Shown one piece after another: positions 1,564 to 46,453 of a stretch of DNA of 48,367 nucleotides. A program made the translations under genes and the position numbers. The notes under the pieces are model-generated. The model saw only the letters and a program-made list of their open reading frames with translations, was not told the origin of the DNA and made no database searches. Source of the stretch: Bacteroidaceae bacterium (GTDB lineage: Bacteria > Actinomycetota > Coriobacteriia > Coriobacteriales > Atopobiaceae); contig CAVKOL010000002.1 in assembly GCA_963658035.1 (NCBI GenBank), forward strand, positions 1 through 48,367. The letters are read 5' to 3'. Position 1 is the first letter of the stretch. The number at the start of each line of letters is the position of its first letter.

Positions 1564-2367
1564 CTAACCCAACAGCATGCGGTCGTTGGCAAACTGCTCG
1601 CCGCTGGCCTCCTCGAACTTGTGCAGCAGGTCGGCGACGGTGAGGGCCTTCTTCTCCTCGCCCTCGACGTCATAGATGATGTGACCGTCGGCCATCATGA
1701 TCAGGCGGTTGCCCAGGCTGATCGCGTCGCTCATGTTGTGCGTGACCATAAGGGCCGTGAGCTTGCGCTCGGTGACGATCTTCTCGGTAAGCTCAAGCAC
1801 CTTGGCGGCCGTCTTGGGGTCCAAGGCGGCGGTATGCTCATCAAGAAGCAGCAGCTTGGGGTCGGTCAGCGTGGCCATAAGCAGCGTCAACGCCTGGCGC
1901 TGGCCGCCAGAGAGCAGGCCCACCTTGGCGTTCATGCGGGTCTCCAGACCCAGGCCCAAGGTGGCGAGAAGCTCAGGGTACTCGGCCTTCTCTTCCTTGG
2001 TGATGCCCCAGGCCAGGCCGCGCTTCTTGCCGCGGCGCTTTGCGAGGGCCAGGTTCTCGGCGATCTGCAGGTCGGCCGCGGTGCCGCGCATGGGGTCCTG
2101 GAACACGCGGCCCAGGTACTTGGCGCGCTGCGACTCGCTCATGCGCGATATGTCGACGCCGTCCAGCTCAATCACGCCGCAATCCAGCGGGTAAACGCCC
2201 GCGATCATGTTGAGCAGCGTGGACTTGCCGGCGCCGTTGCCGCCAATCACGGTGACAAAGTCGCCGTCGTTCAAGGTGAGGTCGACGCCCGCCAAGGCGC
2301 GCTTCTCGGTGACGGTACCGGGGTTGAAGGTCTTCTTCACATGCGAGATCTTAAGCATGCTACTCAT
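1564..2367 (-). CDS. ABC transporter ATP-binding protein
   Basis: Walker A GGNGAGKST, signature LSGGQ, Walker B LLLLDEH, H-loop VTH. Confidence 0.95.
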   Translation of the reverse strand: MSSMLKISHVKKTFNPGTVTEKRALAGVDLTLNDGDFVTVIGGNGAGKSTLLNMIAGVYPLDCGVIELDGVDISRMSESQRAKYLGRVFQDPMRGTAADLQIAENLALAKRRGKKRGLAWGITKEEKAEYPELLATLGLGLETRMNAKVGLLSGGQRQALTLLMATLTDPKLLLLDEHTAALDPKTAAKVLELTEKIVTERKLTALMVTHNMSDAISLGNRLIMMADGHIIYDVEGEEKKALTVADLLHKFEEASGEQFANDRMLLG

Positions 2368-3274
2368 CCCCCTTCGTGTAGGACGCGCGCAGGCGGTGCT
2401 TCTCGATCACGACCGGGACGCACAGGGCCAGCGCCACGATGATGGCCGAGAGGAGCTTCATGTCGTTGGCGTCCATGCCCAGCTGCAAGACGATGGCGCG
2501 AATCAAAAAGTAAACGATCGAGCCAATGACGGCGGCAACCAGGCGTGCTCCAAACTTGGTAAGGCCGCCGGGCAGCAGACGGCCCAGCACCTCACCGATG
2601 ACGATGGCGGCCAGGCCAATGACGATGGCACCCGTGCCCATGCCAATGTCGGCGTACTTCTGGCTCTGGCAAATGAGGCCGCCCGAGAGGCCCACCAGCG
2701 CGTTGGACAAAATAAGAGCGATCATCTTGGTGGCGTTGGTGTTTTGTCCCAGCGCGCGGATCATGTGCTCGTTGTTGCCGGTGGCGCGAAGGGCGGTGCC
2801 GATCTCGGTGCCAAAGAACCAGTACAGGGCCCAAATCACCAGGACGGCCAGGATGGCTCCGATGATGGTGACCACGGTGCTCTGCGGCAGGCCCGTGAGG
2901 TCGGCCACCTTAGAGAAGATCGTGTCGTTGGCCAAAAGCGGCGTGTTGGACTTGCCCATGATGCGCAGGTTGATGGACCACAGGCTGATCTGGGTCAGGA
3001 TGCCGGCGAGAATGGCCGGAATCTCGAAGACCGTGGTGAGAATGCCCGTGACGGCGCCCGCCACGCCTCCGGCCAGCATGCCGCAGACGGTGGCCAGCGC
3101 CGGGTCGACGCCAAAGTTGACCACCAGGACGGCCACCGTGGCGCCGCCCAGGGCAAAGGACCCGTCAACCGTCATGTCGGGGATGTCCAGCAGGCGGAAG
3201 GTGATAAAGACGCCCAGGACGAGAAGACCCCAGAGGATGCCCTGGGACACGGCGCCTTGAAGTGCGATGAGCAT
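2360..3274 (-). CDS. ABC transporter permease (BPD_transp_2 type)
   Basis: Multi-TM protein with 'PDMTVDGSFALGG' and 'ALRATGNN'; overlaps the ATPase start. Confidence 0.92.
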   Translation of the reverse strand: MLIALQGAVSQGILWGLLVLGVFITFRLLDIPDMTVDGSFALGGATVAVLVVNFGVDPALATVCGMLAGGVAGAVTGILTTVFEIPAILAGILTQISLWSINLRIMGKSNTPLLANDTIFSKVADLTGLPQSTVVTIIGAILAVLVIWALYWFFGTEIGTALRATGNNEHMIRALGQNTNATKMIALILSNALVGLSGGLICQSQKYADIGMGTGAIVIGLAAIVIGEVLGRLLPGGLTKFGARLVAAVIGSIVYFLIRAIVLQLGMDANDMKLLSAIIVALALCVPVVIEKHRLRASYTKGDE

Positions 3275-3360
3275 GTGCGCTCCTTCTTACTAGGAAGCGG
3301 GCATGCGCAGCCCGGCTAAGGGTCGCATGCCCGCAAAACAGGTCGTTTACCTGCGCGGAT

Positions 3361-4386
3361 TTAAGCGTCCAGAGCAGAGAGGTCGACGCCGATGGCCTCG
3401 GCCATCTCGTCGTTCTTCACCACGACAAGCTCGTCGGTCGAGAGGTGCTCGATGGGCATGTCGGCGGGCTTGGACTCGCCCTTCAAGATCTTGACGGCCA
3501 TCTCGCCGGCAAGTTTGCCCAGGTCCTTGTAGTTGATCGAGAGGGTAAAGAGGCCGCCTGCCTCGCACATGCCCTCCTCGCCGGTGATAAACGGGAGCTT
3601 GTTCTCTTTGCAAATCTGACCAACCTGCGCGGCGCCCGCGGCGATGGTGTTGTCGGTGGGCGCGTAGAGGGCGTCGACCTTGCCCACGGCCGACTCGACG
3701 ACGGACTGGATCTCGTTGGAGCTAGAGACCGCGTACTCCTCGTAGGAGATGCCGATGGCGTCGAGCTCCTCCTTGGCGGTAGCGATCTGGATGTCGGAGT
3801 TGGACTCGGCCGAGCAGTACAGCAGGCCGACCTTCTTCACGTCGGGCAGGACCTTCTGCATCATCTGGAGCTGCTCGGCAACGGGGGTGAGGTCAGAGGA
3901 GCCGGTGACGTTGGTGCCGGGCTTGTCGTTGTCCTTGACCAGGCCAGACGCAGCGTAATCGGTGATGGCAGAGCCCACGATGGGGATGTCGGAGGTCGCA
4001 GCGGCGGCTGCCTGGGCGGCCGGGGTCGCGATGGCAAAAATCAGGTCGACGCCGTCGCCCACGAACTTGGACGCGATGGTCTGGCAGGCGGACTGGTCGT
4101 TCTGCGCGTTTTGCTGGTCGATCGAAACCGAGAGGCCCGATGCCTCGACGGCCTCGACAAAGCCCTCGTTGGCGGCGTCGAGGGCGGCGTGCTCGGTAAG
4201 CTGGACGACGCCGATCTTGTAGGACGCGGAGCCCGAGCCGCTGCTGGAGCTGGAGCTGGAGCCGCTGGTGCTGGAGCTAGAGCCGCTGGTGCTGGAACTG
4301 CTGGAGCTAGACCCGCAGCCGGCAAGAACGGCAGACGCGGCGGCCAGGCCACTGATGGCGGCGAAGTTCCTTCTGGTGATGTTCAT
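3361..4386 (-). CDS. ABC transporter substrate-binding lipoprotein (ABC_sub_bind family, TrpX-like aromatic amino acid binders)
   Basis: Start MNITRRNF with AGGAAGGGG RBS; lipobox LAGC; Ser-rich linker; motifs 'EHAALD', 'IATPAAQA', 'NVTGSSD', 'PTDNTIA'. Confidence 0.92.
   Translation of the reverse strand: MNITRRNFAAISGLAAASAVLAGCGSSSSSSSTSGSSSSTSGSSSSSSSGSGSASYKIGVVQLTEHAALDAANEGFVEAVEASGLSVSIDQQNAQNDQSACQTIASKFVGDGVDLIFAIATPAAQAAAAATSDIPIVGSAITDYAASGLVKDNDKPGTNVTGSSDLTPVAEQLQMMQKVLPDVKKVGLLYCSAESNSDIQIATAKEELDAIGISYEEYAVSSSNEIQSVVESAVGKVDALYAPTDNTIAAGAAQVGQICKENKLPFITGEEGMCEAGGLFTLSINYKDLGKLAGEMAVKILKGESKPADMPIEHLSTDELVVVKNDEMAEAIGVDLSALDA
4243..4311. repeat. Tandem repeats encoding the Ser/Gly/Thr linker (SSSSTSG units)
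   Basis: Repeated GCTGGA and GAGCCGCTGGTGCTGGA units inside the SBP gene. Confidence 0.7.
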
Positions 4387-4458
4387 ATTTCTCCCCTTCC
4401 TGTGGGTAATACGCCTCTTTTGCGCGGAAATTCTAACCCGCTGCAGCTTTAAGCGTCC

Positions 4459-4488
4459 AAAACGCCCCAGATCAGAAACACTGGGGCG
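4459..4488 (-). terminator. Intrinsic terminator downstream of the small CxxC ORF and upstream of the ABC promoter
   Basis: Minus strand CGCCCCAG-loop-CTGGGGCG-TTTT; a TAGAAT -10 candidate follows at 4430-4435. Confidence 0.65.
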
Positions 4489-4602
4489 CATGATTTAACA
4501 CAGGAAATTAGAAGAGATGGCGAGAAGACCGTGCGGCAGCTACCAGTCGCCGCCAATCGACGAGGAGCCATCGAGGTCCCTCAAGAAACGGTGCGCGCCT
4601 AC

Positions 4603-4797
4603 TTACCAGCCAGAACCAACGCTGTAGCCGTGGCTATCTTTCTTGTAGAAGCGGTGATTGCAATGCTTGCAACGAAAATACTTGGGTTCAGAATTGCGGG
4701 CGTCATACTCAAGATCGCTCCTGTCGCAGTTGGGGCAGTAAAAGTAGCGCACTTTCCCCTGTTTGCTGGCAAGAAACTGATTTTCTTCTCGGTGCAT
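4603..4797 (-). CDS. Small putative zinc-ribbon protein (CxxC-x18-CxxC)
   Basis: 64 aa with 'CPNC' and 'CKHC'; fills an otherwise empty gap and is followed by a terminator; weak RBS and lower GC. Confidence 0.55.
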   Translation of the reverse strand: MHREENQFLASKQGKVRYFYCPNCDRSDLEYDARNSEPKYFRCKHCNHRFYKKDSHGYSVGSGW

Positions 4798-4928
4798 GAC
4801 CTGCCGCCTGCCGAGAAAAAACGTCCCTTACCGAGCAGGGTGCGGGCGACTGCGCGAGGGGCGGGAATACTCCCTGGTGATTGTGTGAAAAGCGAGGGGC
4901 TTTTCACTCCACCCGCCAGCGAGAGGAC

Positions 4929-6026
4929 ATGAGCATGGCACGCGTTTTCATTAGCCCCAGCAAGTACCTTCAGGGTCCCGGCGAGCTTGACCGCCTGGGC
5001 GAGTACACCAAGGTCTACGGTAACAAAGCCCTGGTCATCATATCTGCGGGCGGCCTCAAGCGCTTTGGCGAGCGCGTGGACGCGAGCTTTGCCGCCGCGG
5101 GCGCCGAGCTGGTCTACGACAACTTCAACGGCGAGTGCTCTCAGGCCGAGATCGACCGCCTGGTGGCCGTGCTTAAGAACTGCGGCGCAGACGTCGTCGT
5201 GGGCCTGGGCGGCGGTAAGATCTTTGATACTGCAAAGGCCGTTGCTGCAGCCGTTGACCTGCCCGTGGTTATCGTTCCCACCATCGCCGCGACCGACGCG
5301 CCCTGCTCGGCCCTCTCGGTTATCTACACCGACGACGGCCAGTTCAAGGAGTATCAGTTCTTTAAGCAAAACCCCAACCTGGTGCTTATGGACACCGAGG
5401 TCATCGCCAAGTCGCCCGTGCGCCTGACGGTATCTGGCATGGGCGATGCGCTGGCCACGTACTTTGAGGCCCGCGCCTGCACGCGCTCCGACGCCGGGAC
5501 CTGTGCCGGCGGCAAGGTGACCGGCGCCGCGATGGCCCTGGCCCGCCTGTGCTACGACACCCTCATGAGCGACGGCGTCAAGGCCAAGCTGGCGCTTGAG
5601 GCCGGGGCCTGCACCGAGTCTGTCGAGAAGGTCATCGAGGCAAACACCCTGCTCTCGGGCCTGGGCTTCGAGTCGGCGGGCCTGGCCGGCGCCCACGCGA
5701 TTCACAACGGCATGACCGCCATGGAAGAGACCCACGCCTACTACCACGGCGAGAAGGTCGCCTTTGGCACCCTGACCCAGCTGGTTTTGGAGAACGCGCC
5801 GGAGCTCTACGAGGTCCTGGACTTCTGCGTCGAAGTGGGCCTGCCCGTCACGTTTGCGCAGCTGGGCGTCGAGGACGCCAGCTACGAGCGCGTGCTTGAG
5901 GTCGCCAAGCTGGCTTGCTCGGACGCCGACACACTGCACAACATGCCGTTTGAGGTCACGCCCGAGAAGGTCGCCGCGGCTATGCTGGCCGCCGACGCCT
6001 ACGGGCGCGCGGCGCTGGAGGAGTAG
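4929..6026 (+). CDS. gldA: Glycerol dehydrogenase
   Basis: 'SPSKYLQG', 'GLGGGKIFDTAK', 'PTIAATDAPCSALSVIY', 'GLAGAHAIHNG', 'HGEKVAFG'; GAGAGG RBS. Confidence 0.93.
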   Translation: MSMARVFISPSKYLQGPGELDRLGEYTKVYGNKALVIISAGGLKRFGERVDASFAAAGAELVYDNFNGECSQAEIDRLVAVLKNCGADVVVGLGGGKIFDTAKAVAAAVDLPVVIVPTIAATDAPCSALSVIYTDDGQFKEYQFFKQNPNLVLMDTEVIAKSPVRLTVSGMGDALATYFEARACTRSDAGTCAGGKVTGAAMALARLCYDTLMSDGVKAKLALEAGACTESVEKVIEANTLLSGLGFESAGLAGAHAIHNGMTAMEETHAYYHGEKVAFGTLTQLVLENAPELYEVLDFCVEVGLPVTFAQLGVEDASYERVLEVAKLACSDADTLHNMPFEVTPEKVAAAMLAADAYGRAALEE

Positions 6027-6089
6027 CGCCGGGCGGCGGCCCCGCGTCCGCGGCGGGCTTCTCGCCACCTGCTCCAGCAGCAGCCCCAG

Positions 6090-7325
6090 CTAATCTTCGG
6101 TTCCCCCCAAGTCCCCCAGGCCAAGCAGGCGATCTGCTTCCTGGGGGTCTTCCATTGCCGTAACGTCCTTGAGCTTGCGATTGATCACGTTGGTGCGGGT
6201 CGTGATGATGTTGCTCACGGTGCCGCGGGCGGTGTCGAGCTGCTTCAAGGCGCGCTCGAGCTCGGCCTGGTAGCGGGGGAACTCGGCCTTGACTGCGGCC
6301 AGGACCTGGGCGATCTCGTCGGCGCGGCGCTGGAGGGCCAGGGTCTGGTAGCTCATCTGCAAGCTGTTGAGAAGTGCGGCCATCGTGGAGGGACCAGCGA
6401 CGTTGACGTGGTAGTCGCGCTGCAAGCATTCCAGCAGGCCGGGATGGTCGACGACCTCGGCGTAGAGGCCCTCAAACGGCAAAAACATGATGGCGAAGTT
6501 GGTGGTCTGCGGCACGCTGATGTACTTCTCGCAAATGTCCTTGGCTTCGGCCTTGATGCGGGTTTCCAGCACCTTGCGGGCGGCGTCGACCGCGTCCTTC
6601 TCGCCGGATTCTTGGGCATCGCGCAGCTGGTCGTAGGCATCGCCGGGGAACTTGGCGTCGATGGGCAGGTAGATGGTGCCGTCCTCGACCGGGATCTTGA
6701 CAGCAAACTCAACGCGGTCGTTGCTGCCGGGTTTGGTGGCAACATTTTGGTCGTACTGGTCGCGGGTGAGGATGTCGCCCAGGATGGCGGCCAGCTGCAC
6801 CTCGCCCAGGATACCGCGGGTCTTGACGTTGGACAGCACGCGCTTTAGGCCGCCGACGTCCTGGGCCACGGCCTGCATCTCGCCCAGGCCTTTGTAGACG
6901 GCCTCGAGCTGCTCGTTGACCTGCGAAAACGAGCGGGCCAGGCTGTCGTTAAGGGTGCGCGAGAGCTTCTCGTCCACCGTGGCACGCATCTCGGTGAGCT
7001 GGCTGTTGTTGTCCTCGCGGATCTTCTCGAGCTTGGTGTCCACGGTGTCGCGGATGCGGTCGAGCTTGGCCTCGGCGGTGTAGGTGTTTTGCTGCAGAGC
7101 AGCGGCAGTTTCGCGGCGGGAGGCGTCGATCTTGGCCTCGAGGCGCTGGTCGGCCGTGGCCAAGGCGGTGTTCACCGCGTCGAAGTGCGTCTTGTTGAGG
7201 GCGCGGTCCTGGCGCTGGCCCTCTTCCAGGGCGGCCACACGCTTTTGCGAAAGCAGCGCCATTGCGGCCGCTACCAGCGAACACGCCGCCGAGACACCAA
7301 GAAACACCAGAACAACCGCGTCCAT
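6090..7325 (-). CDS. rmuC: DNA recombination protein RmuC
   Basis: N-terminal TM and coiled coil; 'NVKTRGILGEVQL', 'LPIDAKFP', 'FAIMFLPFEGLYAE', 'GPSTMAALLNSLQM'. Confidence 0.92.
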   Translation of the reverse strand: MDAVVLVFLGVSAACSLVAAAMALLSQKRVAALEEGQRQDRALNKTHFDAVNTALATADQRLEAKIDASRRETAAALQQNTYTAEAKLDRIRDTVDTKLEKIREDNNSQLTEMRATVDEKLSRTLNDSLARSFSQVNEQLEAVYKGLGEMQAVAQDVGGLKRVLSNVKTRGILGEVQLAAILGDILTRDQYDQNVATKPGSNDRVEFAVKIPVEDGTIYLPIDAKFPGDAYDQLRDAQESGEKDAVDAARKVLETRIKAEAKDICEKYISVPQTTNFAIMFLPFEGLYAEVVDHPGLLECLQRDYHVNVAGPSTMAALLNSLQMSYQTLALQRRADEIAQVLAAVKAEFPRYQAELERALKQLDTARGTVSNIITTRTNVINRKLKDVTAMEDPQEADRLLGLGDLGGTED

Positions 7326-7436
7326 GCGCGCTCCAATCTGCGAGGTTTGACCCTGCCATTCTAGTGGGTTTGGCCGGGCACTTGGAGGGTTGGCGGGCTT
7401 CATGGAACGAAATCGCAGCCCTGCATCAAAACACAA

Positions 7437-7472: not shown

Positions 7473-7510
7473 ACGAGTATCTAAGGGCGATCGAAGGCCC
7501 GAGCTACCCC

Positions 7511-37600: not shown

Positions 37601-40600
37601 GGGCGTTGTTCGACGAGGCCAGCGTGTTCTTCGAGTCAAACTGACCGTCGTACGTCCAACCCTCGATCGAGACGGACGCGTTGAACTCGGAAGCATCCTT
37701 CTTCGTAATCTCAAGGGTGCCGAGCTGGTCCTCGCCACGAGTGTAGTTGGAGCTCTTGGTGTTCTCGCCCCAAGCGATTTCGCCGGTCACAGCGTTCGAG
37801 GTCGAGGCGGTGACATCCGGACCAATCGTGGTAGCCGTCGCAGTAGCGGACTCGCCGGAGACAAGTCCCTCCACCGTCGCGGTGCCAACAAGCTCCGCGC
37901 CGTCATACGCCTTGGAATCAGTGTTGGTCTTTACGTAATAGGTCTTGGGGGCAATCTTGATGGTTGCGTCGGCAGTCAAAGTGGTGGTCACGCCGCCAAC
38001 AGTGACGTCCTGCTTAACCTTTACGGGATACTCGCCCGCGTCAGTATAGGTCGGCGCAGTCGTGTTCCAAGTGGCGCCACCATCGGTTGAGTACTGAACC
38101 GCACCCGCATCAATGAGCTTCTTGGCCTGCTCGACATACTTGGAATCAAGACCCGTGTTGTCGTTGATGCTGATATCAACGCTTACGCCATGGCTGGCGC
38201 CATCATAGGTGCCCTCATAGCCCGTAGCAGAGAGGCTTGCCCACAACGCATCAAGCGTGTAGGTCTGGTCCTTACTATATATATAAGTGACGGTCTCGCC
38301 CGCCGTACGAATCGCGGCAGCCTGGCCATCACGTTCCTTATCCATCCAGCCAATGAAGACGTGGTCCTCGGCAGAAGGAACGCTATCGGTCACCACGAAG
38401 GTGTCGTCCTTCGTGAAGCCGTAGTTGTAGTACCACTTCTGGCTACCCGAGGTCTGAGTCGTGTCAGACGGCGCAGTCCACGAAGCGCCGCCGAGCACCA
38501 GGTTGTAACCAGCCTTGCCGGCCTTCTTCTTGTACGTAAGAGTAATGACGTTGCTCGAGTCATTGCTGGTAATCTTCAGCGCAGACGTGCTGGCCTTGCT
38601 GTAGGAGTAACCAGCGATCGTGGGCTTCTCGATTTCGGAGACCTTAATCTCGTCGTTGACCTTGCAGCCCGAGACAGTCTTAGGCTCGGCAATCTCGTTG
38701 CTGCTCTCGTCTACATACTTAATGGTGTACTTGCTGTACTGAGTAAAGGTCCAGGCACCGGTGAAGGTGATCGTCTCGCCCTTGCGGCTCGTTGTAACGG
38801 AATCTTTGTCCCACCCGGCAAAAGTCCAGTAGCCGTTGTTGGCCGCGTCCTCGTAAACGGTCTGCGTGGGGCTCTTTGCCTTTACGGTCTTATTCGCCTG
38901 ATAAGTGCTCTTGTCAACCGGCAGGTAGCTATTGATCGCTCCGGGAAGGCTCATGGCCGAAGTCCCGGAAACAAACTGATACTGCACGTCGGTCTTGGGA
39001 GCAATATTGCACGTAGCGGTAGCCGTCTTGGTAACCGTGGCACCCGAGGCGATATCGCCAGAGGTAATGGTATAGGTGCCCGTATAGGTCGAAGTCGCGT
39101 TTACCGTAAGCACCACGCTGCCACGGTTGCAGTCAGCGTCGGTGGCCGTATAGTGAACGGTTCCCGTAAAGGTACCGTCGGTGTTCTGGGTCAAGTTCTC
39201 GACATCTACGGAAGTGCCGTTGATGTCTGCGCTGTTTACATGCACGCCAGTAACGGTGTCCTTGCCGCTGCCGGTGGTCTTGGGGGTAATGGTGACGGTG
39301 AACGTAAGTTCATCGCCGGCAGCCACGTTATTGGTACGATCGCTTACCGCGGTCACAGTCATATCAGGCGACTTCGCGCTGACGGTAAAGTTCTGGCTCA
39401 TGCTCGACTGGGGGCCTCGGTAATAACCAAAGGCCGCAACATAGCCCGCGGCCTTGGCGGCGGCCATAACCGTCGAAAGCCCGGGATAGCTAGCGATGTT
39501 GCCCCAGTTGGTGCCGTCAACTGCGTACATATCGCCATTACCCGAAGCATTAAGACCGGTAACTATATAGTTGTCGTTTGGCTTAACAAAGAAGACGATG
39601 TAGCCGGACTCGCTCGACGTGGTGTAGTTGTTAACGGTAAAGCTGCTGGTAGCGGGAGTGAACGCGACGTTGCTCACGTCGCTCGAGTTGTGCCAATTGA
39701 AGTACACGACGTCAGCGTTCTCGATAGTCGTGGTAAAGGTCGCGTTGTACTTGCCCGTGGTCGAATCGGTCTTAGTGACCTGAACCGTCTTCTTTGCAAC
39801 CTCGGTATCATACGTGGCGATGACCTCAACGGTGCCTTCCGCCACGCCGGTCAAAACACCGTTGCTGTCGATAGTGGCAATGCTCGGATCCGAAGTGGTC
39901 CAAGTCACATCGCCAGAGAAGCCAGTTGCAACATAGGGCGCAAGCTTACCAACCTCAAGGGTGTCGTTACCGGTAACGGCAAGTTCCTTGACCTCGGACT
40001 TCTTGAGCACGTGAATGGTATAGGTCTCGGTGTTGGTTTTCTGGTTCCAACCGCTGCCCGTTGTATAGGTGTGCGTGACCGTGGTCGAGCCGACCTTCAC
40101 GCCGGTAACGGTCGCCGAGCTACCCGAAGAAGCAAGCGTTGCAACGCCGCTATCGGAGTTGGCCCAGCTGTGGTTCCTGTTGCCCGAACCGGCAAGGTCA
40201 ATGGACTCGCCAACGTAGATGTACTTCTCGTAGGTAGTATCCTCGCCCTTTTGGTCGGGAATCTCGATGGTCTCGTCAGAGCTGCTCGCGTAAATGTAGC
40301 CGCTGTACGCCTTGACCACGGCAGTGTATACGCCGTCCTGAGTAAAGTCGGAATCGTCGTGATAGTACTGACTTGCGTTGAGCTTTACGCCGTCGCGGTA
40401 GTACTCGATGGGCAGCATGCTTCCGCTGAGAACCGAAGAGTCGATGACCTCGTTGGTCTCAGAGTCGATAAGCGTAGGAACCCACCAGTGGCTCTCTCCC
40501 ACCGTGACGGGGGAAGGATCCTGGATGTAGAAGCTGCGCTTCTTCACCGTAACGGTATACGTAAGCGCCTGGTCGTTCGAATGAGAAGCGCCGTCCTTGT

Positions 40601-41555: not shown

Positions 41556-41875
41556 ATAACCCACCTCTTAGTCCGTTGCGAGCGTGCCCGCAATCGACCA
41601 GCTTTTGCGATACGAACCTTTGCCGGGCAAAATCTATAGACTTCTCCCATTAAAGATAGTTATGAATAATATTACCGCAATATGGAGGGGGTATACAGCT
41701 GAATATGCCCTTAACCAAGAACTTAACGCCCAGGTCACAAAGGGTGGGGTGCAACAAAATAGCGGGCCTAGATAGGTTTATTCCATCCGGGCCCTACGCT
41801 CTTATTTAGACCATCGATTCCATGTCCCGGTTCTTATGCCTTCCAAAAGACCAGGGGATTGCTCTATGGGACTTT

Positions 41876-41949
41876 TTGCTTCCGCTAATTTGAATTAACG
41901 GAAGCAAATTGTGGTTCGCTTCCGTTAAGATTGGTCTAACGGAAGCGAA
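41876..41949. promoter_or_regulatory. Two tandem palindromes upstream of fic (candidate operators)
   Basis: TTGCTTCCGCTAA-N6-TTAACGGAAGCAA (41876-41907) and TTCGCTTCCGTTA-N9-TAACGGAAGCGAA (41915-41949). Confidence 0.7.
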
Positions 41950-41967
41950 TTTGCTTTGGAGGCGCCC

Positions 41968-43164
41968 ATGGATGCCCAGTGGCCAGCCATTACAACTGAA
42001 ATTCTTCCTTGGCATTTGGACGCCGACGAGCTGGACGACATCCCGCGGAGCCGAAGGCGCAAGATTGGGTCCACCTACGAAGCGGCGGTTCCGCTGCATA
42101 TTGCCGAGTTGCCACTTGAGGTTCCAGCCGAGCTAATCACGCACATCGAGGCGCTTGTGAGCGACCTCTCGCGGTTTGATGCCCTGCAGGCCGAACGGGG
42201 GTACAACCTGCCTGCGCTCTTGTTGCGAAGCGAATCTGCCGCAAGCTCGCAGATCGAGAACCTTACCTCCAGCGTGCGCAACGTGGCGTTGGCCGAGGTC
42301 AGCGGCGACGGCCCGCAGAACGCCCTACTCATCATGGGCAACCTTGCGGCAATGAAAGAAGCGCTGGCTTTTGACGGGGAGGTCAGCATCCCCGCCATCC
42401 TCGAGATTCACCGCGCACTGATTACCCGTGGGGGCATGACGTTTGGTGGGCAGCTGCGCGACCAACAGGTTTGGATCGGGGGCAATGCATACAGCCCACA
42501 CGGCGCCCTGTATGTTCCGCCCGCGCACCAACACGTTCCCGAGCTTCTCGAAGACTTGGTGGCCTTTGCGCGCCGCGAGGATATTGGTGCTGTGACGAAG
42601 GCCGCTCTTGTGCATGCACAACTTGAGACGATTCACCCGTTTATCGACGGTAACGGCAGGACTGGTCGCACGCTTCTGCATAAGATTTTAAAAGATGAAG
42701 GAGTGCTGCGACAGACGGCGGTGCCTGTCTCGGCGGGGCTGCTGCATGATGTCGACAGCTATATGGACTCGCTTGAGGAATTTCAGAAGGGTAACCCCGT
42801 TGCCGTGATTGAGCAGCTGGTTGATGCGCTTGAGCTTGCGCTGGCCATTGGCTCGAGAACCGCCGCGCAAATTGATAAGGTTATGGCCGGTTGGAACGAC
42901 GTCATTACCGAAAGGGCGGGATCGAGTATTAGGCGGCTACCGCAGCTGCTGGCAGAGCAGCCGGTGGTTAACTCGGCCTACGTCGCGGATGGCCTCTCGA
43001 TTACTACGCGCGCGGCAACGAGTTTAATCACGCGGGCCTGTGAGTACGGAATCTTGCGACCCATGGGTAACCGCCGCCGCGGGGAGTTTTACCAGGCAGA
43101 CGCCATCATCGATGTCCTGGAAGAGATTTCCAGCGAAACCGGGATTCGCCGGATGTTCTCGTAG
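41968..43164 (+). CDS. Fic family protein (class II-like) with a C-terminal wHTH-like region
   Basis: Canonical HPFIDGNGRTGR motif; N-terminal inhibitory-type motif 'SSQIEN'; GGAGG RBS; lower GC3 than neighbours. Confidence 0.93.
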   Translation: MDAQWPAITTEILPWHLDADELDDIPRSRRRKIGSTYEAAVPLHIAELPLEVPAELITHIEALVSDLSRFDALQAERGYNLPALLLRSESAASSQIENLTSSVRNVALAEVSGDGPQNALLIMGNLAAMKEALAFDGEVSIPAILEIHRALITRGGMTFGGQLRDQQVWIGGNAYSPHGALYVPPAHQHVPELLEDLVAFARREDIGAVTKAALVHAQLETIHPFIDGNGRTGRTLLHKILKDEGVLRQTAVPVSAGLLHDVDSYMDSLEEFQKGNPVAVIEQLVDALELALAIGSRTAAQIDKVMAGWNDVITERAGSSIRRLPQLLAEQPVVNSAYVADGLSITTRAATSLITRACEYGILRPMGNRRRGEFYQADAIIDVLEEISSETGIRRMFS

Positions 43165-43183
43165 CCCGGCAAGCATGCGGAGT

Positions 43184-43303
43184 TTTTGCACGACCCGATG
43201 GCGGGTTGGCAGGTAGTTAAACGGATGCCGTTTACGTTTGCGCAGGTAGACGAAGTGCGGGTTTTGGCGGCTACTTGAGAAAACGCGATTGGGTCGTGCA
43301 AAA
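43184..43303. repeat. About 120-bp element with 16-bp inverted ends
   Basis: TTTTGCACGACCCGAT ... ATTGGGTCGTGCAAAA (1 mismatch), between convergent fic and pilT. Confidence 0.7.
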
Positions 43304-43351
43304 GTCAAGGTTGCGCGCGGCGGCAGGGCAAAACGCGGCCGCGCGACACAG

Positions 43352-43391
43352 AAAAGGTGCCCGGGCGCCGCTGCGCGGCGACCGGGCACCT
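43352..43391 (-). terminator. Terminator of the pilus-like operon
   Basis: Minus strand AGGTGCCCGGTCGCCG...CGGCGCCCGGGCACCTTTT. Confidence 0.75.
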
Positions 43392-43420
43392 CGTTTCAAG
43401 CGTAAAACCGCCTGCGAACC

Positions 43421-44494
43421 CTACAGGCCCTCGGACGCAAAGCGTCTCTCGAGCGCCTCGGGATAGTTGGCGTACTGCAGCGCGGTCTCCTTGGACACCT
43501 TGCCCGACTTCGCCACGGCGAAAAGCGCCTGATCCATGGTCTGCATGCCGCTCTTGCCGCCCGCCGCGATCACCGAGTCGATCTGGTAGGTCTTCTCCTC
43601 ACGAATCAGGTTGCGAATGGCCGTGTTCATCGTCATGATCTCGAACACCGGCACGGTGCCGCCGTCGACGGTGGGTACCAGCTGCTGCGCGACCGTTGCC
43701 TGCAGGACCAGCGAAAGCTGGATGCGAATCTGGCGCTGCTGCGTGGCCGGGAAGGCGTCGACAATGCGCTCGACCGTATCGGCCGCGCTGGTGGTGTGCA
43801 GGGTCGAAAGCACCAGCTGGGCCATCTCGGCGGCGGTCACGGCCGCGCCGATCGTCTCGGCGTCGCGCATCTCGCCCAGCATGATGACGTTGGGGCTCTC
43901 GCGCATGGCCGAGCGCAGGGCCTCGGCGTAGGTGGCCACGTCGGTAGGCACCTCGCGCTGGGTAACGATGCAGGTACCATGCTTGTGCACGTACTCGATG
44001 GGGTCCTCCATCGTGATGATGTGGCCGCTGCGCTCGTGGTTCATGCGGTCGATGATGCAGGCCAGGGTGGTCGACTTGCCGCTACCTGCGGGGCCGGTGA
44101 CCAGCACCATGCCCTTGGACACGTTGGCCAGGCGAAGGACGCTCTCGGGGATGTTCTTCTCAACCGGGTCGGGCAGGCCAAACGGAATCACGCGCACAAC
44201 CGCGCCGTACGAGCCGCGCTGGCGGAAAATGTTGGCCCTAAAGCGGCCAACTCCGGGCAGCGCGAACGAGAAATCCTCGTCGTGGTTCTCTTTTGCCTGG
44301 AAATAGGTGATGTCGCGGCCGGCAGTGGCGTAGATCGCGCGGACCATGGCCTCGGTGTCGGCGGGCATGAGGGGGGTCTCGCCAACGCGCACCTGGACGC
44401 CGCTGGACTGATAGGTGAGCGGCAGGCCGGCGATGAAGAAGACGTCGGAGGCCTGGGCCTCGATCATCTGGCTGAGCAAATCCTTGAGTTCCAT
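43421..44494 (-). CDS. pilT: PilT/PilU family type IV pilus ATPase
   Basis: Walker A GPAGSGKST, Asp box TMEDPIE, Walker B MLGEMRD, PilT-specific AIRNLIRE and GMQTMDQ motifs. Confidence 0.93.
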   Translation of the reverse strand: MELKDLLSQMIEAQASDVFFIAGLPLTYQSSGVQVRVGETPLMPADTEAMVRAIYATAGRDITYFQAKENHDEDFSFALPGVGRFRANIFRQRGSYGAVVRVIPFGLPDPVEKNIPESVLRLANVSKGMVLVTGPAGSGKSTTLACIIDRMNHERSGHIITMEDPIEYVHKHGTCIVTQREVPTDVATYAEALRSAMRESPNVIMLGEMRDAETIGAAVTAAEMAQLVLSTLHTTSAADTVERIVDAFPATQQRQIRIQLSLVLQATVAQQLVPTVDGGTVPVFEIMTMNTAIRNLIREEKTYQIDSVIAAGGKSGMQTMDQALFAVAKSGKVSKETALQYANYPEALERRFASEGL

Positions 44495-44515
44495 GAGATT
44501 TCCCTTCTTGGTTTG

Positions 44516-45061
44516 CTAGTTTGCGCTGGTAGACGAGGTGGACGAGGTTCCGGTGGGGCTGGAGCCAGACCACAGGTTGGTCTGGGCCTCGGCCTGGGCG
44601 GTGGACATCTTCCACTGCGTGATGTCGCAGGCCAGGGCATCGGTGACGGTCACAACGGCGTCGAGCGTGCGGCCGTTGGCGGCCACGACGGTGAACTCGA
44701 CGTTGTTGCCGTCAACCGAGAAGGACACATCAAGGCCAGCGTCGGTGGCTTCGACCTGGGTAAGCGCGTCGGTCTGAATCTTGGTCGCGTTGGCCTTGAC
44801 GTAGGCCACGGCCTGGGCCGCGGTGCCGCCCTGGGCCGCGGTCTTTGCGACCTGCGCATCTACCTGGGACAGAATAGCCTGCCCCACGCCGTCGATCTGG
44901 TAGGTCTCGCTCACCGAGACGCCCTGCTTTTGGGTGGTGGCCCACGTCGCGCGGGCGGTCACCACGCACAGGACGGCCAGGACGCTCATCAAAAGGATTG
45001 CCAGCAACGTGATGAAGCTCACGATACCAATACGCACGTTACCTGCGGTTTTCTTGGCCAT
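44516..45061 (-). CDS. Pilin-like protein (short basic leader plus N-terminal hydrophobic helix, PilX/GspK-like position)
   Basis: 'MAKKTAGNVRIG-IVSFITLLAILLMSVLAVL'; no Glu5; located in the pilus operon. Confidence 0.7.
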   Translation of the reverse strand: MAKKTAGNVRIGIVSFITLLAILLMSVLAVLCVVTARATWATTQKQGVSVSETYQIDGVGQAILSQVDAQVAKTAAQGGTAAQAVAYVKANATKIQTDALTQVEATDAGLDVSFSVDGNNVEFTVVAANGRTLDAVVTVTDALACDITQWKMSTAQAEAQTNLWSGSSPTGTSSTSSTSAN

Positions 45062-45062
45062 G

Positions 45063-45560
45063 TTACTTCACCCCGCTTACGTAACGAGAGGCATCCAGCG
45101 AGAAGAGCGGGTCGGCGGCTGCGGCCGTGCCGGCGGCGTCCCCGGCCTCGACCACCGTGATGTGCGCGCGGTACAAGGTCCCGGCGTCGGTGGCCTGGGT
45201 CTCGACCTCGCAGGTCACGGCCAGCGACTCGGTGTTCTTCTCGCCAGCGGCAAAGCCCTGGCCAACAGGGGTGCCAGCGGCCACGGCGGCCGGGCTGTTA
45301 GAGAACTCCTCGGCCGCGGACTGGGCCATCTGGATGGCGGCCGTCAAGTCCTCGGACTCGGTGGCCAGGGTGCCCGCCTTTGCATACAGCGAGGTAAACA
45401 CGGCCATCGAGACCACGATCGCAAACAGCAAGATCAAGGACTCGACCACAAAGGCCAGGCCCGTCCAGGCGTGGCCCTCGTCACCGCGGCGGGCAGCAAC
45501 CCCGCCGGCGCCCTCAAGCTCTTGGGGCCCAAACGAGCCTAGGTTCTTCTCGCCAGCCAT
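45063..45560 (-). CDS. Pilin-like protein
   Basis: 'TGLAFVVESLILLFAIVVSMAVF' hydrophobic helix with a Glu, then an amphipathic helix 'AAIQMAQSAAEEF'; TAATG coupling to the upstream gene. Confidence 0.75.
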   Translation of the reverse strand: MAGEKNLGSFGPQELEGAGGVAARRGDEGHAWTGLAFVVESLILLFAIVVSMAVFTSLYAKAGTLATESEDLTAAIQMAQSAAEEFSNSPAAVAAGTPVGQGFAAGEKNTESLAVTCEVETQATDAGTLYRAHITVVEAGDAAGTAAAADPLFSLDASRYVSGVK

Positions 45561-46105
45561 TACAGGTCACCCCCCTGAAGGTTGCGCAGCGCGACCTCGC
45601 AGGTGCCCTGATCTGTGGTGATGCTAAACAGCCCGTGGGAGACGCCAAAGCTAAACGTGCTGGACTCGGCCAGCTCGGTTGCCGCCGAGGGCGTGTAGGC
45701 CGCGCCCTGAATGGCGTACTCCTGCAGGATTTTGCCCTGGTAGAGGTAGGTGCGAATCTCGTAGGTGCCACTATCGAGGTGCTGAACGACCACCAGCGAG
45801 CGGCCCTCGGGGCCCTCGCCCACGGCCACGCTGCCCGTGGCGTCGTTGGCGCGCACCGAGTTGATGATCAGCTCCATGCCCTCGCGCGACTGGTTGTTGG
45901 CCCGCTGAGCTGCGGCAACGCGGCTGTACACGTTGACGCCGGTGACCAGGGCAACCAGCAGCAGCACAAACAGCACGGCCAAAAACAGCGGCGAGAAGAG
46001 CCTGGCGGCCCGCCCGGTCTTCTCCTCACGCAGAGAAATGCGCGCGACGCTGGTTAGGGCCTCGGCGCGGTCGATCTTGTTGGTGTTTTGGCTGGTCATG
46101 CTCAT
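45560..46105 (-). CDS. DUF4860-like pilin-like protein
   Basis: TM ending 'TGVNVY', 'NSVRANDATGSV', 'YEIRTYLYQGKILQEY' match the DUF4860 pattern as recalled; ATGA overlap with the upstream gene. Confidence 0.75.
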   Translation of the reverse strand: MSMTSQNTNKIDRAEALTSVARISLREEKTGRAARLFSPLFLAVLFVLLLVALVTGVNVYSRVAAAQRANNQSREGMELIINSVRANDATGSVAVGEGPEGRSLVVVQHLDSGTYEIRTYLYQGKILQEYAIQGAAYTPSAATELAESSTFSFGVSHGLFSITTDQGTCEVALRNLQGGDL

Positions 46106-46428
46106 CGCGGCGCCACCACCACACTGGGGACGATGTTGTCGGCAAACCACTCGTAGGTGATGATGTAGTCGTTGTGGTTGATGGTCAAGCCGTAGCTTTC
46201 CTCGAGGTGGCTCAGCGAGCTGGGGTACGCGCCCTCGATCGAGGCGCACTGCTTGGCCGCCGAGAGGATCGACTCACGCAGCGCCGCCGCGCCCTGGACG
46301 CGAGCGTTGTGGCGAGCAACCCCCGCCACGGCCGCGACGGCCACGCACACGACCAGCACCACGGCCACGATGACCCAACGCCGCTTCTTGCGTTTGCCCT
46401 CTTCTTTATAGGTGAGCTCGTGAAACAT
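46102..46428 (-). CDS. Small pilin-like membrane-anchored protein
   Basis: Basic leader KRKKRR, one TM, then 'AAKQCASIEGAYPSSLSHLEESYG', reminiscent of the pseudopilin 'GxYP..L..L' motif. Confidence 0.75.
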   Translation of the reverse strand: MFHELTYKEEGKRKKRRWVIVAVVLVVCVAVAAVAGVARHNARVQGAAALRESILSAAKQCASIEGAYPSSLSHLEESYGLTINHNDYIITYEWFADNIVPSVVVAPR

Positions 46429-46453
46429 CGATATTGGCCTGCCCTTCTCGCCG

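What the first reader, a model, noticed from the sequence alone, without database searches (positions are those of the whole stretch)
1963..46452. GGCGAGAAG/CTTCTCGCC 9-mer behaves like an undescribed DNA-uptake sequence
Seen: 30 exact copies by manual scan (some may be missed). GGCGAGAAG starts at 1963, 4519, 5748, 10348, 12969, 16245, 16575, 18297, 20582, 20824, 21616, 23453, 28143, 36768, 45990. CTTCTCGCC starts at 6058, 6597, 10359, 14121, 16773, 19709, 19961, 21277, 21823, 30735, 31278, 34884, 45237, 45546, 46444. A rough base-composition estimate at about 64% GC gives fewer than 1 copy. Nine copies are intergenic although intergenic DNA is only about a tenth of the window. Coding copies are read in three ways (Gly-Glu-Lys; Leu-Leu-Ala using the non-preferred CTT; x-Phe-Ser-Pro), so one peptide motif cannot explain them. 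Strand use is balanced 15:15. Known: Neisseria DUS and Pasteurellaceae USS are 9-10-mers at about one per kb, strand-unbiased and often paired in hairpins, whereas Chi and KOPS are strand-polarised. Inference: this is a self-DNA recognition or uptake signal, or a nucleoid-protein binding site, in a monoderm actinobacterium, where I know of no described uptake sequence.
Basis: partly seen in the sequence, partly recalled or inferred. Interest (0 to 1): 0.9.

Follow-up and report, generated by a model that had tools for sequence, protein, structure and literature searches.

The report
Abundant uptake-sequence-like 12-bp genome motif
A 12-base DNA word, GNCGAGAAGNNC, is scattered about once per kilobase on both strands of this gut-type actinobacterial genome and some of its relatives, in the way DNA-uptake tags are scattered in Neisseria and Haemophilus, but what reads it is still unknown.

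Summary
The window holds 31 exact GGCGAGAAG copies (16+/15-), against 0.69 expected. Genome-wide (2.37 Mb) it is the commonest 9-mer, with 1270 copies. It is the core of a sharp consensus, G-N-C-G-A-G-A-A-G-N-N-C (2388 copies, about 1 per kb).

- It stays far above codon-aware nulls; the antisense reading CTT-CTC-GCC occurs 537 times against 46 expected.
- Single-mismatch variants are 5-100 times rarer, except at the degenerate second position.
- It is not strand-polarised.
- It is not a repeat family.

It is twice as dense in intergenic DNA, densest between convergent genes, sometimes paired in hairpins, and depleted in a prophage. 44% of all Leu-Leu-Ala tripeptides are written with this one 9-mer.

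The same word dominates genomes of 51-68% GC in four genera of this (probably Atopobiaceae) family and in one other family. Eleven of the other 18 species of this genus have two to six times fewer copies. It was not enriched in 200 other Actinomycetota.

No reader protein was found. ComEA, ComEC, DprA and a Tad-type ATPase are present, but they are also present in motif-poor congeners. Best reading: a DUS/USS-like self-DNA tag (about 0.4). The function is untested.

The parts
1963..1974 (+). motif copy GGCGAGAAGCTC; antisense frame 0 (Leu-Leu-Ala reading) in ABC ATPase gene 1564-2367(-)
4519..4530 (+). motif copy, intergenic
5748..5759 (+). motif copy, sense frame 0 (Gly-Glu-Lys) in Fe-ADH gene 4881-6026(+)
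6055..6066 (-). motif copy, intergenic, in the gap between convergent genes 4881-6026(+) and 6090-7436(-)
6594..6605 (-). motif copy, sense frame 0 in RmuC gene
10348..10367 (.). two copies as an inverted pair, GGCGAGAAG-AC-CTTCTCGCC; intergenic hairpin
12969..12980 (+). motif copy, antisense frame 0 in gene 12918-16457(-)
14118..14129 (-). motif copy, sense frame 0 in gene 12918-16457(-)
16245..16256 (+). motif copy, antisense frame 0 in gene 12918-16457(-)
16575..16586 (+). motif copy, antisense frame 0 in Amt-PII gene 16554-18434(-)
16770..16781 (-). motif copy, sense frame 0 in Amt-PII gene
18297..18308 (+). motif copy, antisense frame 0 in Amt-PII gene
19709..19717 (-). 9-mer copy without the downstream C; antisense frame 2 in NhaA gene
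19958..19969 (-). motif copy, intergenic, downstream of NhaA
20582..20593 (+). motif copy, antisense frame 0 in VTT-domain gene 20165-21010(-)
20824..20835 (+). motif copy, antisense frame 1 in VTT-domain gene
21274..21285 (-). motif copy, intergenic
21616..21627 (+). motif copy, sense frame 0 in MgtE gene; kept in 12 of the 13 aligned congeners
21820..21831 (-). motif copy, antisense frame 0 in MgtE gene. Clade-specific gain: the other congeners read CTC/CTT-ATC/ATT-GCG/GCC
23453..23464 (+). motif copy, sense frame 0 in Nramp gene, in a variable stretch; seen in this genome and, at the same place, in one of the nine congeners aligned there
28143..28154 (+). motif copy, antisense frame 0 in the 5291-aa ORF
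30732..30743 (-). motif copy, sense frame 0 in the 5291-aa ORF
31278..31286 (-). 9-mer copy without the downstream C; sense frame 0 in the 5291-aa ORF
34881..34892 (-). motif copy, sense frame 0 in the 5291-aa ORF
36768..36779 (+). motif copy, antisense frame 0 in the 5291-aa ORF
45234..45245 (-). motif copy, sense frame 0 in small membrane-protein gene 45063-45560(-) of the pilus-like locus
45543..45554 (-). motif copy, sense frame 0 at the start of gene 45063-45560(-)
45990..46001 (+). motif copy, antisense frame 2 in gene 45560-46249(-)
46441..46452 (-). motif copy, intergenic, just downstream of the T2SSF gene
331..47941 (.). 20 further copies of the degenerate form GNCGAGAAGNNC with A, C or T at the second position. 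All 49 copies together: 23 on +, 26 on -

Best explanation
GGCGAGAAG is the core of a 12-bp asymmetric word, G-N-C-G-A-G-A-A-G-N-N-C. A force acting on the DNA itself, not on proteins, keeps it at about one copy per kb on both strands of this genome. I think a lineage-specific protein most likely reads it on double-stranded DNA as a tag of 'own-kind' DNA during natural transformation. DNA fragments carrying the word would be taken up preferentially through the ComEA/ComEC channel behind a Tad-type pilus. Recombination would then slowly spread new copies through the population, which is the DUS/USS molecular drive. Copies would settle where they cost least: the two reading frames that give Gly-Glu-Lys and Leu-Leu-Ala, intergenic DNA, and terminator-like hairpins. 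Shown here: the abundance, the consensus, the strand neutrality, the DNA-level origin, the lineage distribution and the directional gain.
For: - Abundance: top 9-mer genome-wide, 1270 copies, 18-46 times Markov order 0-2 expectation.
- Consensus: ten specified positions, with single-base variants 5-100 times rarer except at position 2. The same logo appears in intergenic DNA.
- DNA-level origin: the antisense reading occurs 537 times against 46 under synonymous shuffling and 25 under codon-order shuffling; the sense reading 449 against 296 and 96. 44% of Leu-Leu-Ala tripeptides are encoded by CTTCTCGCC here, 49% in G026 and 34% in G133, while in motif-poor G017 it is not among the top four encodings.
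- Strand neutrality: 631:639, per-contig dispersion chi2/df about 1. 100 + and 100 - copies interleave in the first 440 kb of G010. In the complete genome G061 only 57-60% lie on the G-rich strand; I estimate about 56% from its G/C and A/T strand skews alone, and the most polar 8-mers reach 74-78%.
- Placement: intergenic 0.91/kb against 0.48/kb in coding DNA. Gaps between convergent genes 1.34/kb, tandem 0.87, divergent 0.64. 25 close inverted pairs in the GGCGAGAAG...CTTCTCGCC order against 13, 11 and 12 for the other arrangements, several followed by T runs.
- Foreign DNA: a prophage end has 0 copies of the 12-bp pattern in 10 kb at host-like GC. Low-GC windows carry 0.44/kb against 1.0-1.3/kb elsewhere.
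- Independent of composition: it is also the top 9-mer in genomes of 51%, 60% and 68% GC.
- Directional gain: in orthologues of G000 and G017, antisense sites are 26 G000-only, 2 G017-only and 0 shared, and half are synonymous recodings. Clade-specific sites were made by two or three coordinated substitutions.
- Machinery: ComEC intact in 19 of 19 congeners. ComEA in 5 of 5 tested. DprA in 18 of 19. A Tad/CpaF-like ATPase in 6 of 6, G000 and the five other genomes tested. Flp/Tad-pilus-dependent transformation is described for the actinobacterium Micrococcus luteus (PMC4322843; search listing and start of abstract seen).
Against: - No receptor or other determinant was identified.
- ComEC, ComEA, DprA and the Tad-type ATPase are just as intact in motif-poor congeners, so they do not explain who has the motif.
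- The type IV pilus-like locus in the window is present in two motif-poor species and was not found by DNA search in two motif-rich ones.
- The distribution is patchy within one genus: of its 19 species (G000 included) 8 are high, 3 intermediate and 8 low. As I recall them, DUS and USS are family-wide.
- Spacing is random, not even (CV 1.0).
- None of the papers listed by my three searches reports natural transformation or an uptake sequence in these taxa.
- All the statistical properties would also fit an abundant orientation-blind DNA-binding protein.
Confidence: 0.4

Rival explanations
1. The word is the binding site of an abundant chromosome-associated protein (architectural, segregation-related or silencing). 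The protein reads double-stranded DNA regardless of orientation, and selection for occupancy keeps the sites.
For: Strand neutrality and a sharp 12-bp consensus with two free positions look like a protein footprint of about one helical turn. The identical word is kept across genera of 51-68% GC and in a second family, which suggests a conserved reader. The competence genes tested do not discriminate motif-rich from motif-poor species.
Against: As far as I recall, no known nucleoid protein has thousands of exact 10-position sites written into coding frames at the cost of rare codons. Eight of the 19 species of the genus do without it at baseline frequency, which is odd for an architectural role. 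Spacing is random. Enrichment behind genes and in hairpin pairs is not predicted. No candidate protein was found.
Confidence: 0.2
2. It is a by-product of a sequence-specific mutation or repair bias with no function of its own. Examples would be repair linked to a modification enzyme, or biased gene conversion. This is what has been proposed for the cyanobacterial HIP1 palindrome (recalled, not looked up).
For: Near-matches are converted to matches. GGCAAGAAGNNC has 114 copies in G000 (2.37 Mb) against 77 in just 400 kb of G017. Sites are made by several coordinated substitutions. The patchy distribution fits a gene that is easily gained and lost. The prophage is depleted.
Against: The only C5 methyltransferase in G000 is present in motif-poor G012, reduced to remnants in motif-rich G010 and G018, and was not found in G026. 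No Vsr endonuclease was found in G000, which is 93.9% complete. No N4/N6 methyltransferase of family PF01555 was found. The two N6 methyltransferases sit on low-GC contigs that carry two and no copies of the 12-bp pattern in 6.6 and 3.9 kb. As I recall it, very-short-patch repair acts on one position of a site, not ten. The motif is not a palindrome.
Confidence: 0.13
3. It is a Chi-like signal read on single-stranded DNA by the AddAB helicase-nuclease. It would switch AddAB from degradation to repair and so mark self DNA. It would be needed in both orientations because breaks are two-ended.
For: An AddAB-type pair is encoded on contig C75, and the AddB-like subunit ends in a Cys-rich motif that I recall as typical of its iron-sulfur nuclease domain. 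The density per orientation, about 1 per 3.7 kb, the enrichment in core DNA and the depletion in a prophage all resemble Chi. AddB is only 46-47% identical between G000 and its congener G017, so its specificity could differ.
Against: As I recall them, known Chi sites are 5-8 nt long and clearly co-oriented with replication. Here the bias is 57-60%, against about 56% that I estimate from strand composition alone, and it is absent at contig level. AddB is present in all 5 genomes tested, including three motif-poor ones. The enrichment and its imprint on coding sequence are far stronger than I recall for any Chi.
Confidence: 0.1
4. It is an FtsK/SpoIIIE guide sequence (KOPS/SRS). The core GAGAAG is shared with the Bacillus subtilis SRS GAGAAGGG and resembles the Lactococcus KOPS GAAGAAG (both recalled).
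For: The shared core hexamer. One FtsK gamma domain is present in G000 and in 149 of 151 genomes of the order.
Against: The defining polarity is missing. GAGAAGGG is itself unpolarised here, 365:363. Motif-rich genomes have no extra gamma-domain paralogue.
Confidence: 0.02
5. It is a side effect of codon usage or of a favoured peptide, or it is a dispersed repeat family.
For: GGC, GAG and AAG are preferred codons. Motif-poor congeners still hold 190-350 copies of GGCGAGAAGNNC, against about 20-30 for the reversed control.
Against: The excess survives both codon-aware nulls. The logo is the same in intergenic DNA. The word is the top 9-mer even in a genome of 51% GC. 1264 of 1265 39-bp contexts are unique.
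Confidence: 0.01

Closest known systems
DNA uptake sequence (DUS) of Neisseriaceae, read by the minor pilin ComP (recalled; dialects: PMC7371117, search listing and start of abstract seen)
   Same: A 10-12 bp word at roughly one per kb, on both strands alike. Often found as inverted pairs behind genes. Scarce in mobile DNA. Related lineages carry the same core with small extensions (here GGGCGAGAAG in G026).
   Different: Different sequence and a different phylum with a monoderm envelope. No ComP-like receptor was found. About 79% of copies lie in genes. Presence is patchy even within one genus. Uptake bias is untested.
Uptake signal sequence (USS) of Pasteurellaceae (recalled)
   Same: A 9-mer core inside a longer consensus. 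Most copies lie in coding DNA, in the frames that give tolerable peptides, so the word leaves an imprint on protein composition (GEK and LLA here). One-off variants are present but much rarer.
   Different: No AT-rich flanks here. There is a two-base unspecified gap followed by a fixed C. The receptor is unknown, and natural competence is not described for these taxa.
KOPS / SRS guide sequences for FtsK/SpoIIIE (recalled)
   Same: Shares the GAGAAG core with the Bacillus SRS. Over-represented chromosome-wide.
   Different: No replication-oriented polarity, which is the defining property.
Chi sites of RecBCD/AddAB (recalled)
   Same: An over-represented asymmetric word enriched in core DNA. AddAB is present.
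   Different: Longer, far more enriched, and essentially unpolarised.
HIP1 highly iterated palindrome of cyanobacteria (recalled)
   Same: About one copy per kb, lineage-patchy, written into coding sequence, function unresolved.
   Different: HIP1 is a palindrome linked to methyltransferases. This word is asymmetric, and the one C5 methyltransferase does not track it.

Membership tests
DNA uptake sequences (DUS/USS) | Short word over-represented by an order of magnitude or more, about one per kb genome-wide | tested here: met
   1270 copies of the 9-mer and 2388 of GNCGAGAAGNNC in 2.37 Mb. It is the top 9-mer and 18-46 times Markov order 0-2 expectation.
DNA uptake sequences (DUS/USS) | Excess is at DNA level, not explained by codons or peptides | tested here: met
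   Synonymous and codon-order shuffles, the intergenic logo, and top 9-mer rank at 51% GC.
DNA uptake sequences (DUS/USS) | Both orientations equally frequent, no replichore polarity | tested here: met
   631:639, chi2/df about 1. G010 has 100:100 in its first 440 kb. G061 has 57-60% on the G-rich strand, against about 56% that I estimate from strand composition.
DNA uptake sequences (DUS/USS) | Enriched in intergenic DNA, with inverted pairs behind genes | tested here: met
   0.91/kb intergenic against 0.48/kb coding. Gaps between convergent genes 1.34/kb. 25 close inverted pairs. Only about 4% of copies are in such pairs.
DNA uptake sequences (DUS/USS) | Under-represented in recently acquired DNA | tested here: met
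   One prophage end has 0 copies in 10 kb. Low-GC windows carry 0.44/kb. None of 80 viral contigs carrying a hairpin pair is motif-rich, which is weak evidence.
DNA uptake sequences (DUS/USS) | Shared by a clade, with dialects | tested here: inconclusive
   The same core is abundant in genera g1 (part), g15, g17 and g19 and in family f9, with a G-extended dialect in G026. Eight species of the genus are at baseline, and the one examined (G017) shows no alternative word.
DNA uptake sequences (DUS/USS) | Organism has DNA-uptake machinery and is naturally transformable | tested here: inconclusive
   ComEC, ComEA, DprA and a Tad-type ATPase are present, but equally in motif-poor congeners. Transformability cannot be tested here, and none of the papers my searches listed reports it.
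DNA uptake sequences (DUS/USS) | Motif-bearing DNA is taken up preferentially, through a specific receptor | not testable with these tools
   Needs uptake or transformation assays. No receptor candidate was found, and the window's pilus locus does not correlate.
KOPS/SRS (FtsK/SpoIIIE guides) | Strong co-orientation with replication on each replichore | tested here: not met
Chi sites | Orientation bias with replication; recognised by RecBCD/AddAB | tested here: not met
   The bias is not above what strand composition gives. AddAB is present, but also in motif-poor genomes. Recognition itself is not testable here.
HIP-type iterated palindromes linked to methyltransferases | Palindromic word; presence tracks a methyltransferase | tested here: not met
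   The word is asymmetric. The C5 methyltransferase does not track it. No Vsr was found.
REP/MITE-type dispersed repeats | Conserved sequence beyond the core | tested here: not met
   1264 of 1265 39-bp contexts are unique. The flanks show only codon periodicity.

The most novel reading that the evidence does not exclude
This is a true DNA uptake sequence, the first outside Neisseriaceae and Pasteurellaceae and the first in a Gram-positive phylum. An undiscovered receptor would read it during Tad-pilus/ComEA/ComEC-dependent transformation in Atopobiaceae. Species that lost the receptor would be sliding back to baseline, so gain and decay of an uptake sequence could be watched within one genus.
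Probability: 0.35. Interest if true: 0.92.

Novelty: new variant of a known kind. Interest (0 to 1): 0.8.

Why it matters
As I recall, sequence-specific DNA uptake is known from only two proteobacterial families, and its origin and its receptors are long-standing questions. Here a signal with the same statistical anatomy appears in gut and oral-type Coriobacteriia. It shares one exact core across genomes of 51-68% GC, and closely related species lack it. If uptake is not the answer, a protein or process that writes one 9-mer into 44% of all Leu-Leu-Ala tripeptides is still an undescribed force on genome and protein composition. In practice, the word could serve as a lineage marker for binning and for spotting foreign DNA, and possibly as a handle for making these bacteria genetically tractable.

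Tried and rejected
- Codon or peptide artefact: rejected.
- Repeat family: rejected.
- KOPS/Chi-type polarity: rejected at contig level, over 440 kb of G010, and across a complete chromosome.
- An alternative dialect in motif-poor congener G017: none. No dominant k-mer in 400 kb.
- Window pilus-like locus (43.4-47.5 kb) as determinant: no correlation. It is present in motif-poor G016 and G017 and was not found by DNA search in motif-rich G010 and G018.
- ComEC, ComEA, DprA and the Tad-type ATPase as discriminators: present on both sides.
- C5 methyltransferase on C127: no correlation. The ORF after it does not look like a Vsr, and no Vsr family match was found.
- N6 methyltransferases: they lie on motif-poor, low-GC contigs. 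PF01555: none found. RecC: none found.
- Extra FtsK-gamma paralogue in motif-rich genomes: none.
- AddB presence or absence: found in all 5 genomes tested.
- Unusually similar genes between G000 and 131 kb of G026: nothing striking; median identity about 41%.
- Viral contigs carrying hairpin pairs: 1 + 79 loci, none motif-rich.
- G036 fetch: gave only two tiny contigs.
- Literature: no paper holds the 9-mer, and those holding CGAGAAG are unrelated. None of the papers listed links uptake sequences or natural transformation to Coriobacteriia or to other Actinobacteria. Three papers pairing GAGAAG with methyltransferases were listed, none concerning these taxa by title.
- Not done: a whole-genome presence/absence screen for the determinant. 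It would have needed more genome fetches than the caps allow.

Full report
**Observation**

The window holds 31 exact copies of GGCGAGAAG, 16 on the + strand and 15 on the - strand. Dinucleotide-preserving shuffles give 0.69 on average and never more than 3.

The window is contig C2 of a 2.37-Mb assembly in 216 contigs with 63.4% GC. In the whole assembly the word and its complement form the commonest 9-mer, with 1270 copies. Its core CGAGAAG is the commonest 7-mer, with 4328 copies. Markov models of order 0, 1, 2 and 3 expect 28, 43, 69 and 196 copies. The word ranks first among all 9-mers by z-score at orders 2 and 4.

**Anatomy**

Aligning all copies shows a fixed C three bases downstream (90%) and a tolerant second position. 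The consensus is G-N-C-G-A-G-A-A-G-N-N-C. This 12-bp pattern occurs 2388 times (1162 + 1226), about one per kb, and 49 times in the window against 0.60 expected.

With the 12-mer GGCGAGAAGNNC as reference (1137 copies), every single-base change at a specified position has between 2 and 208 copies. The exception is position 2, where C has 645, T 322 and A 285.

The same logo appears in 306 kb of intergenic DNA, so the flanking G, C and C are not codon effects. Flanks beyond the 12 bp are not conserved: 1264 of 1265 39-bp contexts are unique, so this is not a dispersed repeat.

**Coding context and nulls**

I called genes crudely, as stop-to-stop ORFs chosen by third-position GC. This gave 1844 ORFs covering 87.6% of the genome.

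Location of the 1270 copies:

| Location | Copies |
|---|---|
| In frame as Gly-Glu-Lys | 402 |
| In frame on the opposite strand as Leu-Leu-Ala (CTT-CTC-GCC) | 396 |
| Other four frames | 204 |
| Intergenic | 268 |

That makes 0.91 copies per kb of intergenic DNA against 0.48 per kb of coding DNA.

| Null model | Sense copies | Antisense copies |
|---|---|---|
| Observed | 449 | 537 |
| Synonymous codons shuffled within each gene (protein and codon usage kept) | 296 | 46 |
| Codon order shuffled | 96 | 25 |

The DNA word shapes the proteins. Gly-Glu-Lys is 3.4 times its amino-acid expectation here, against 1.5 times in a motif-poor congener. 44% of all Leu-Leu-Ala tripeptides are written with this single one of 144 possible encodings.

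In the window itself the split is 11 sense, 10 antisense in frame, 3 in other antisense frames and 7 intergenic, in 8.6% non-coding DNA.

**Strand and position**

- Totals are 631:639. The scatter of strand ratios among contigs equals binomial expectation (chi2/df 0.99), whereas ordinary 8-mers reach 4-5.
- In congener G010, whose main contig exceeds 2 Mb, the first 440 kb holds 100 copies on each strand, interleaved.
- In G061, a complete single-contig genome of a neighbouring genus, I sampled 28 stretches of 20 kb around the chromosome. GC skew defines two replichores. 151 of 263 copies of the 12-bp pattern (57%) and 98 of 164 9-mers (60%) lie on the G-rich strand. I estimate about 56% from the G/C and A/T strand skews alone, and the most polar 8-mers reach 74-78%. 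This is not Chi- or KOPS-like polarity.
- Spacing between copies is exponential (CV 1.00), so it is neither clustered nor especially even.
- Among intergenic regions, gaps between convergent genes are richest (1.34 9-mers per kb). Tandem gaps have 0.87 and divergent gaps 0.64.
- Close pairs in the order GGCGAGAAG...CTTCTCGCC number 25, most with loops of 2-12 bases and several followed by T runs. The other three arrangements number 13, 11 and 12. One such pair lies at 10348-10367.

**Foreign DNA**

The longest motif-free stretch is the first 10 kb of contig C25. It has host-like GC and encodes an anti-repressor, a repressor, an integrase, an endolysin, a holin, a reverse transcriptase and a tail protein, so it is a prophage end. 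The whole 20-kb contig has two 9-mers.

Density rises from 0.44 per kb in windows below 54% GC to 1.0-1.3 per kb at 62-68%. Two scans of 2.9 million viral contigs for hairpin pairs returned 1 and 79 loci. None has a motif-rich background; the maximum is 0.15 extra copies per kb.

**Relatives**

All 18 other species of the genus exceed the reversed-word control, but at different levels:

| Group | Species (other than G000) | Copies of GGCGAGAAGNNC |
|---|---|---|
| High (G000 itself has 1136) | 7 | 822-1148 |
| Intermediate | 3 | 474-526 |
| Low | 8 | 190-349 |

In 400 kb of the low species G017 there is no dominant k-mer and no alternative word. GGCAAGAAGNNC (77 copies) is commoner than the motif (46), so this is codon-level baseline.

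Across 150 other genomes of the order, the word is abundant in these groups:

| Group | Genomes | Copies |
|---|---|---|
| Genus g15 | 4 of 4 | 890-1151 |
| Genus g17 | 10 of 10 | 216-468, in 1.5-1.7 Mb |
| Genus g19 | 1 | 392 |
| Family f9 (G026) | 1 | 564, in 1.4 Mb |

All other genomes stay at or below about 85 copies per Mb.

Sequence samples confirm that it is the top 9-mer in G026 (60% GC) and in G061 (51% GC), and the joint top in G133 (68% GC). G026 carries a G-extended dialect, GGGCGAGAAG, in 53 of its 85 copies, and a sharper consensus.

In 200 other genomes from 65 families of the phylum, none exceeds about 25 copies per Mb. Eight of those genomes are flagged unpublished, and they enter only this negative tally.

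The taxon is not named. The best full-length named relative of the window's Amt gene is an Atopobiaceae MAG (72% identity). It shares the NhaA-Amt gene order and shows 20 CGAGAAG in 22 kb. I therefore read the family as probably Atopobiaceae, in the order Coriobacteriales.

**Direction of change**

In an alignment of the MgtE-Nramp region from 13 species of the genus (G000 and 12 others), some sites are shared by nearly all. Others are specific to the window's clade and were made by two or three substitutions at once. For example, CTC-ATC-GCG became CTT-CTC-GCC, which includes an Ile-to-Leu change.

In 169 orthologue pairs between G000 and G017 (54,218 aligned codons), in-frame sites divide as follows:

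| Orientation | G000 only | G017 only | Shared |
|---|---|---|---|
| Antisense | 26 | 2 | 0 |
| Sense | 13 | 8 | 7 |

In 13 of the 26 G000-only antisense sites the protein is unchanged, and G017 uses commoner Leu codons. Sites are not placed in less conserved parts of the proteins: flanking identity is 0.743 against 0.747 for the same genes overall.

**Search for a reader**

- ComEC is intact in 19 of 19 species of the genus.
- ComEA was found in all five genomes tested.
- DprA was found in 18 of 19.
- A Tad/CpaF-type ATPase was found in all six genomes tested, G000 included.

The machinery for DNA uptake therefore exists, but it does not separate motif-rich from motif-poor species.

The window's own pilus-like locus holds a PilT-like ATPase at 43421-44494, four small membrane proteins, and a T2SSF protein at 46454-47506. 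It is present in the window's clade and in two motif-poor species, and was not found by DNA search in two motif-rich ones.

Other candidates that do not track the motif:
- The one C5 methyltransferase.
- Vsr, RecC and PF01555 methyltransferases: none was found in G000.
- The two N6 methyltransferases, which sit on low-GC contigs carrying two and no copies of the 12-bp pattern.
- FtsK gamma, which is single-copy in 149 of 151 genomes.
- An AddAB-type helicase-nuclease, which is present, but whose AddB subunit is found in all five genomes tested, motif-poor ones included.

**Interpretation**

A sequence-specific force acts on the DNA, is blind to orientation, and operates in some lineages and not in their close relatives. 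Orientation-blindness argues for a reader of double-stranded DNA rather than a tracking motor or a single-strand scanner.

The combination seen here is about one copy per kb, both strands alike, frame-constrained copies that distort protein composition, enrichment behind genes and in hairpins, scarcity in a prophage, and a shared core with a dialect. As I recall the properties of DUS and USS, this is their anatomy.

I therefore put a DUS/USS-like self-DNA tag first, at about 0.4. The remaining weight goes to an abundant DNA-binding protein (0.2), a functionless repair or conversion bias (0.13), a non-polar Chi-like signal for AddAB (0.1), and smaller or unknown alternatives.

Weighing against uptake:
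- No receptor was found.
- The motif is patchy within one genus.
- Spacing is random.
- None of the papers listed by my searches reports transformation in these taxa.
- Flp/Tad-dependent transformation is described in the actinobacterium Micrococcus luteus (PMC4322843; search listing and start of abstract only). This makes the route plausible but proves nothing here.

**Novelty**

No paper in the library holds the 9-mer. Nine papers mention both uptake sequences and Actinobacteria, and by their titles and abstract openings none describes one in that phylum. The motif, its consensus and its distribution therefore appear to be undescribed. If it works as an uptake signal, it is a new variant of a known kind in a new phylum.

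**Limits**

- The gene calls are crude.
- The assembly is fragmented and 93.9% complete.
- Relatives are unnamed and partly incomplete.
- Statements about DUS, USS, Chi, KOPS/SRS and HIP1 are from memory, except where a paper is cited.

Noticed in passing
window 25689-41564 (-): A single 5291-residue ORF with many internal repeats, an N-terminal signal-like start and a C-terminal membrane anchor, so probably a giant surface protein. It carries five exact 9-mer copies in 15.9 kb, below the window average.
   Followed up: no
window 43421-47506 (-): A type IV pilus-like locus: a PilT-like ATPase (357 aa), four small membrane proteins, one with a possible prepilin-like segment, and a T2SSF platform protein. 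It is shared with the window's clade and with two motif-poor congeners, and was not found by DNA search in two motif-rich ones.
   Followed up: partly
window about 16375-16515 and about 19972-20117: Intergenic elements of about 140 bp, with internal hairpins (for example GGGGCTTGTCTGATGG...CATCAGACAAGCCCC) and repeated TTTGTAGC units. They match dozens of places in this genome and in the five closest congeners, so they look like a small MITE-like or terminator repeat family, distinct from the motif.
   Followed up: partly
window 16554-18434 (-): An ammonium transporter fused to a PII domain. Its closest named relatives are mostly Firmicutes (Gemmiger 75%, Lachnospiraceae 68%) besides an Atopobiaceae MAG (72%). 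This suggests exchange among gut anaerobes.
   Followed up: partly
G000 contig C25:1-10700 (locus L222): A prophage end with integrase, repressor and anti-repressor, endolysin, holin and tail protein. A reverse transcriptase lies next to the tail gene (a possible diversity-generating retroelement), and four CTTCTCG cores lie 30-42 bases apart at 10030-10132.
   Followed up: partly
G000 contig C75:2225-9121 (-): An AddAB-type helicase-nuclease pair. The AddB-like subunit is only 46-47% identical to that of a congener whose DNA matched the window at about 80% identity where compared. The gene is interrupted by a run of N in the assembly.
   Followed up: partly
whole genome G000, contigs of 25 kb or more: GC skew correlates negatively with gene orientation (r = -0.86), so coding strands are C-rich. 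In this assembly skew reflects transcription direction more than replication.
   Followed up: no
window 41956-43164 (+): A Fic/DOC-domain protein gene lies between the giant ORF and the pilus-like locus, in an 8.4-kb stretch (36777-45236) without any exact 9-mer copy.
   Followed up: no
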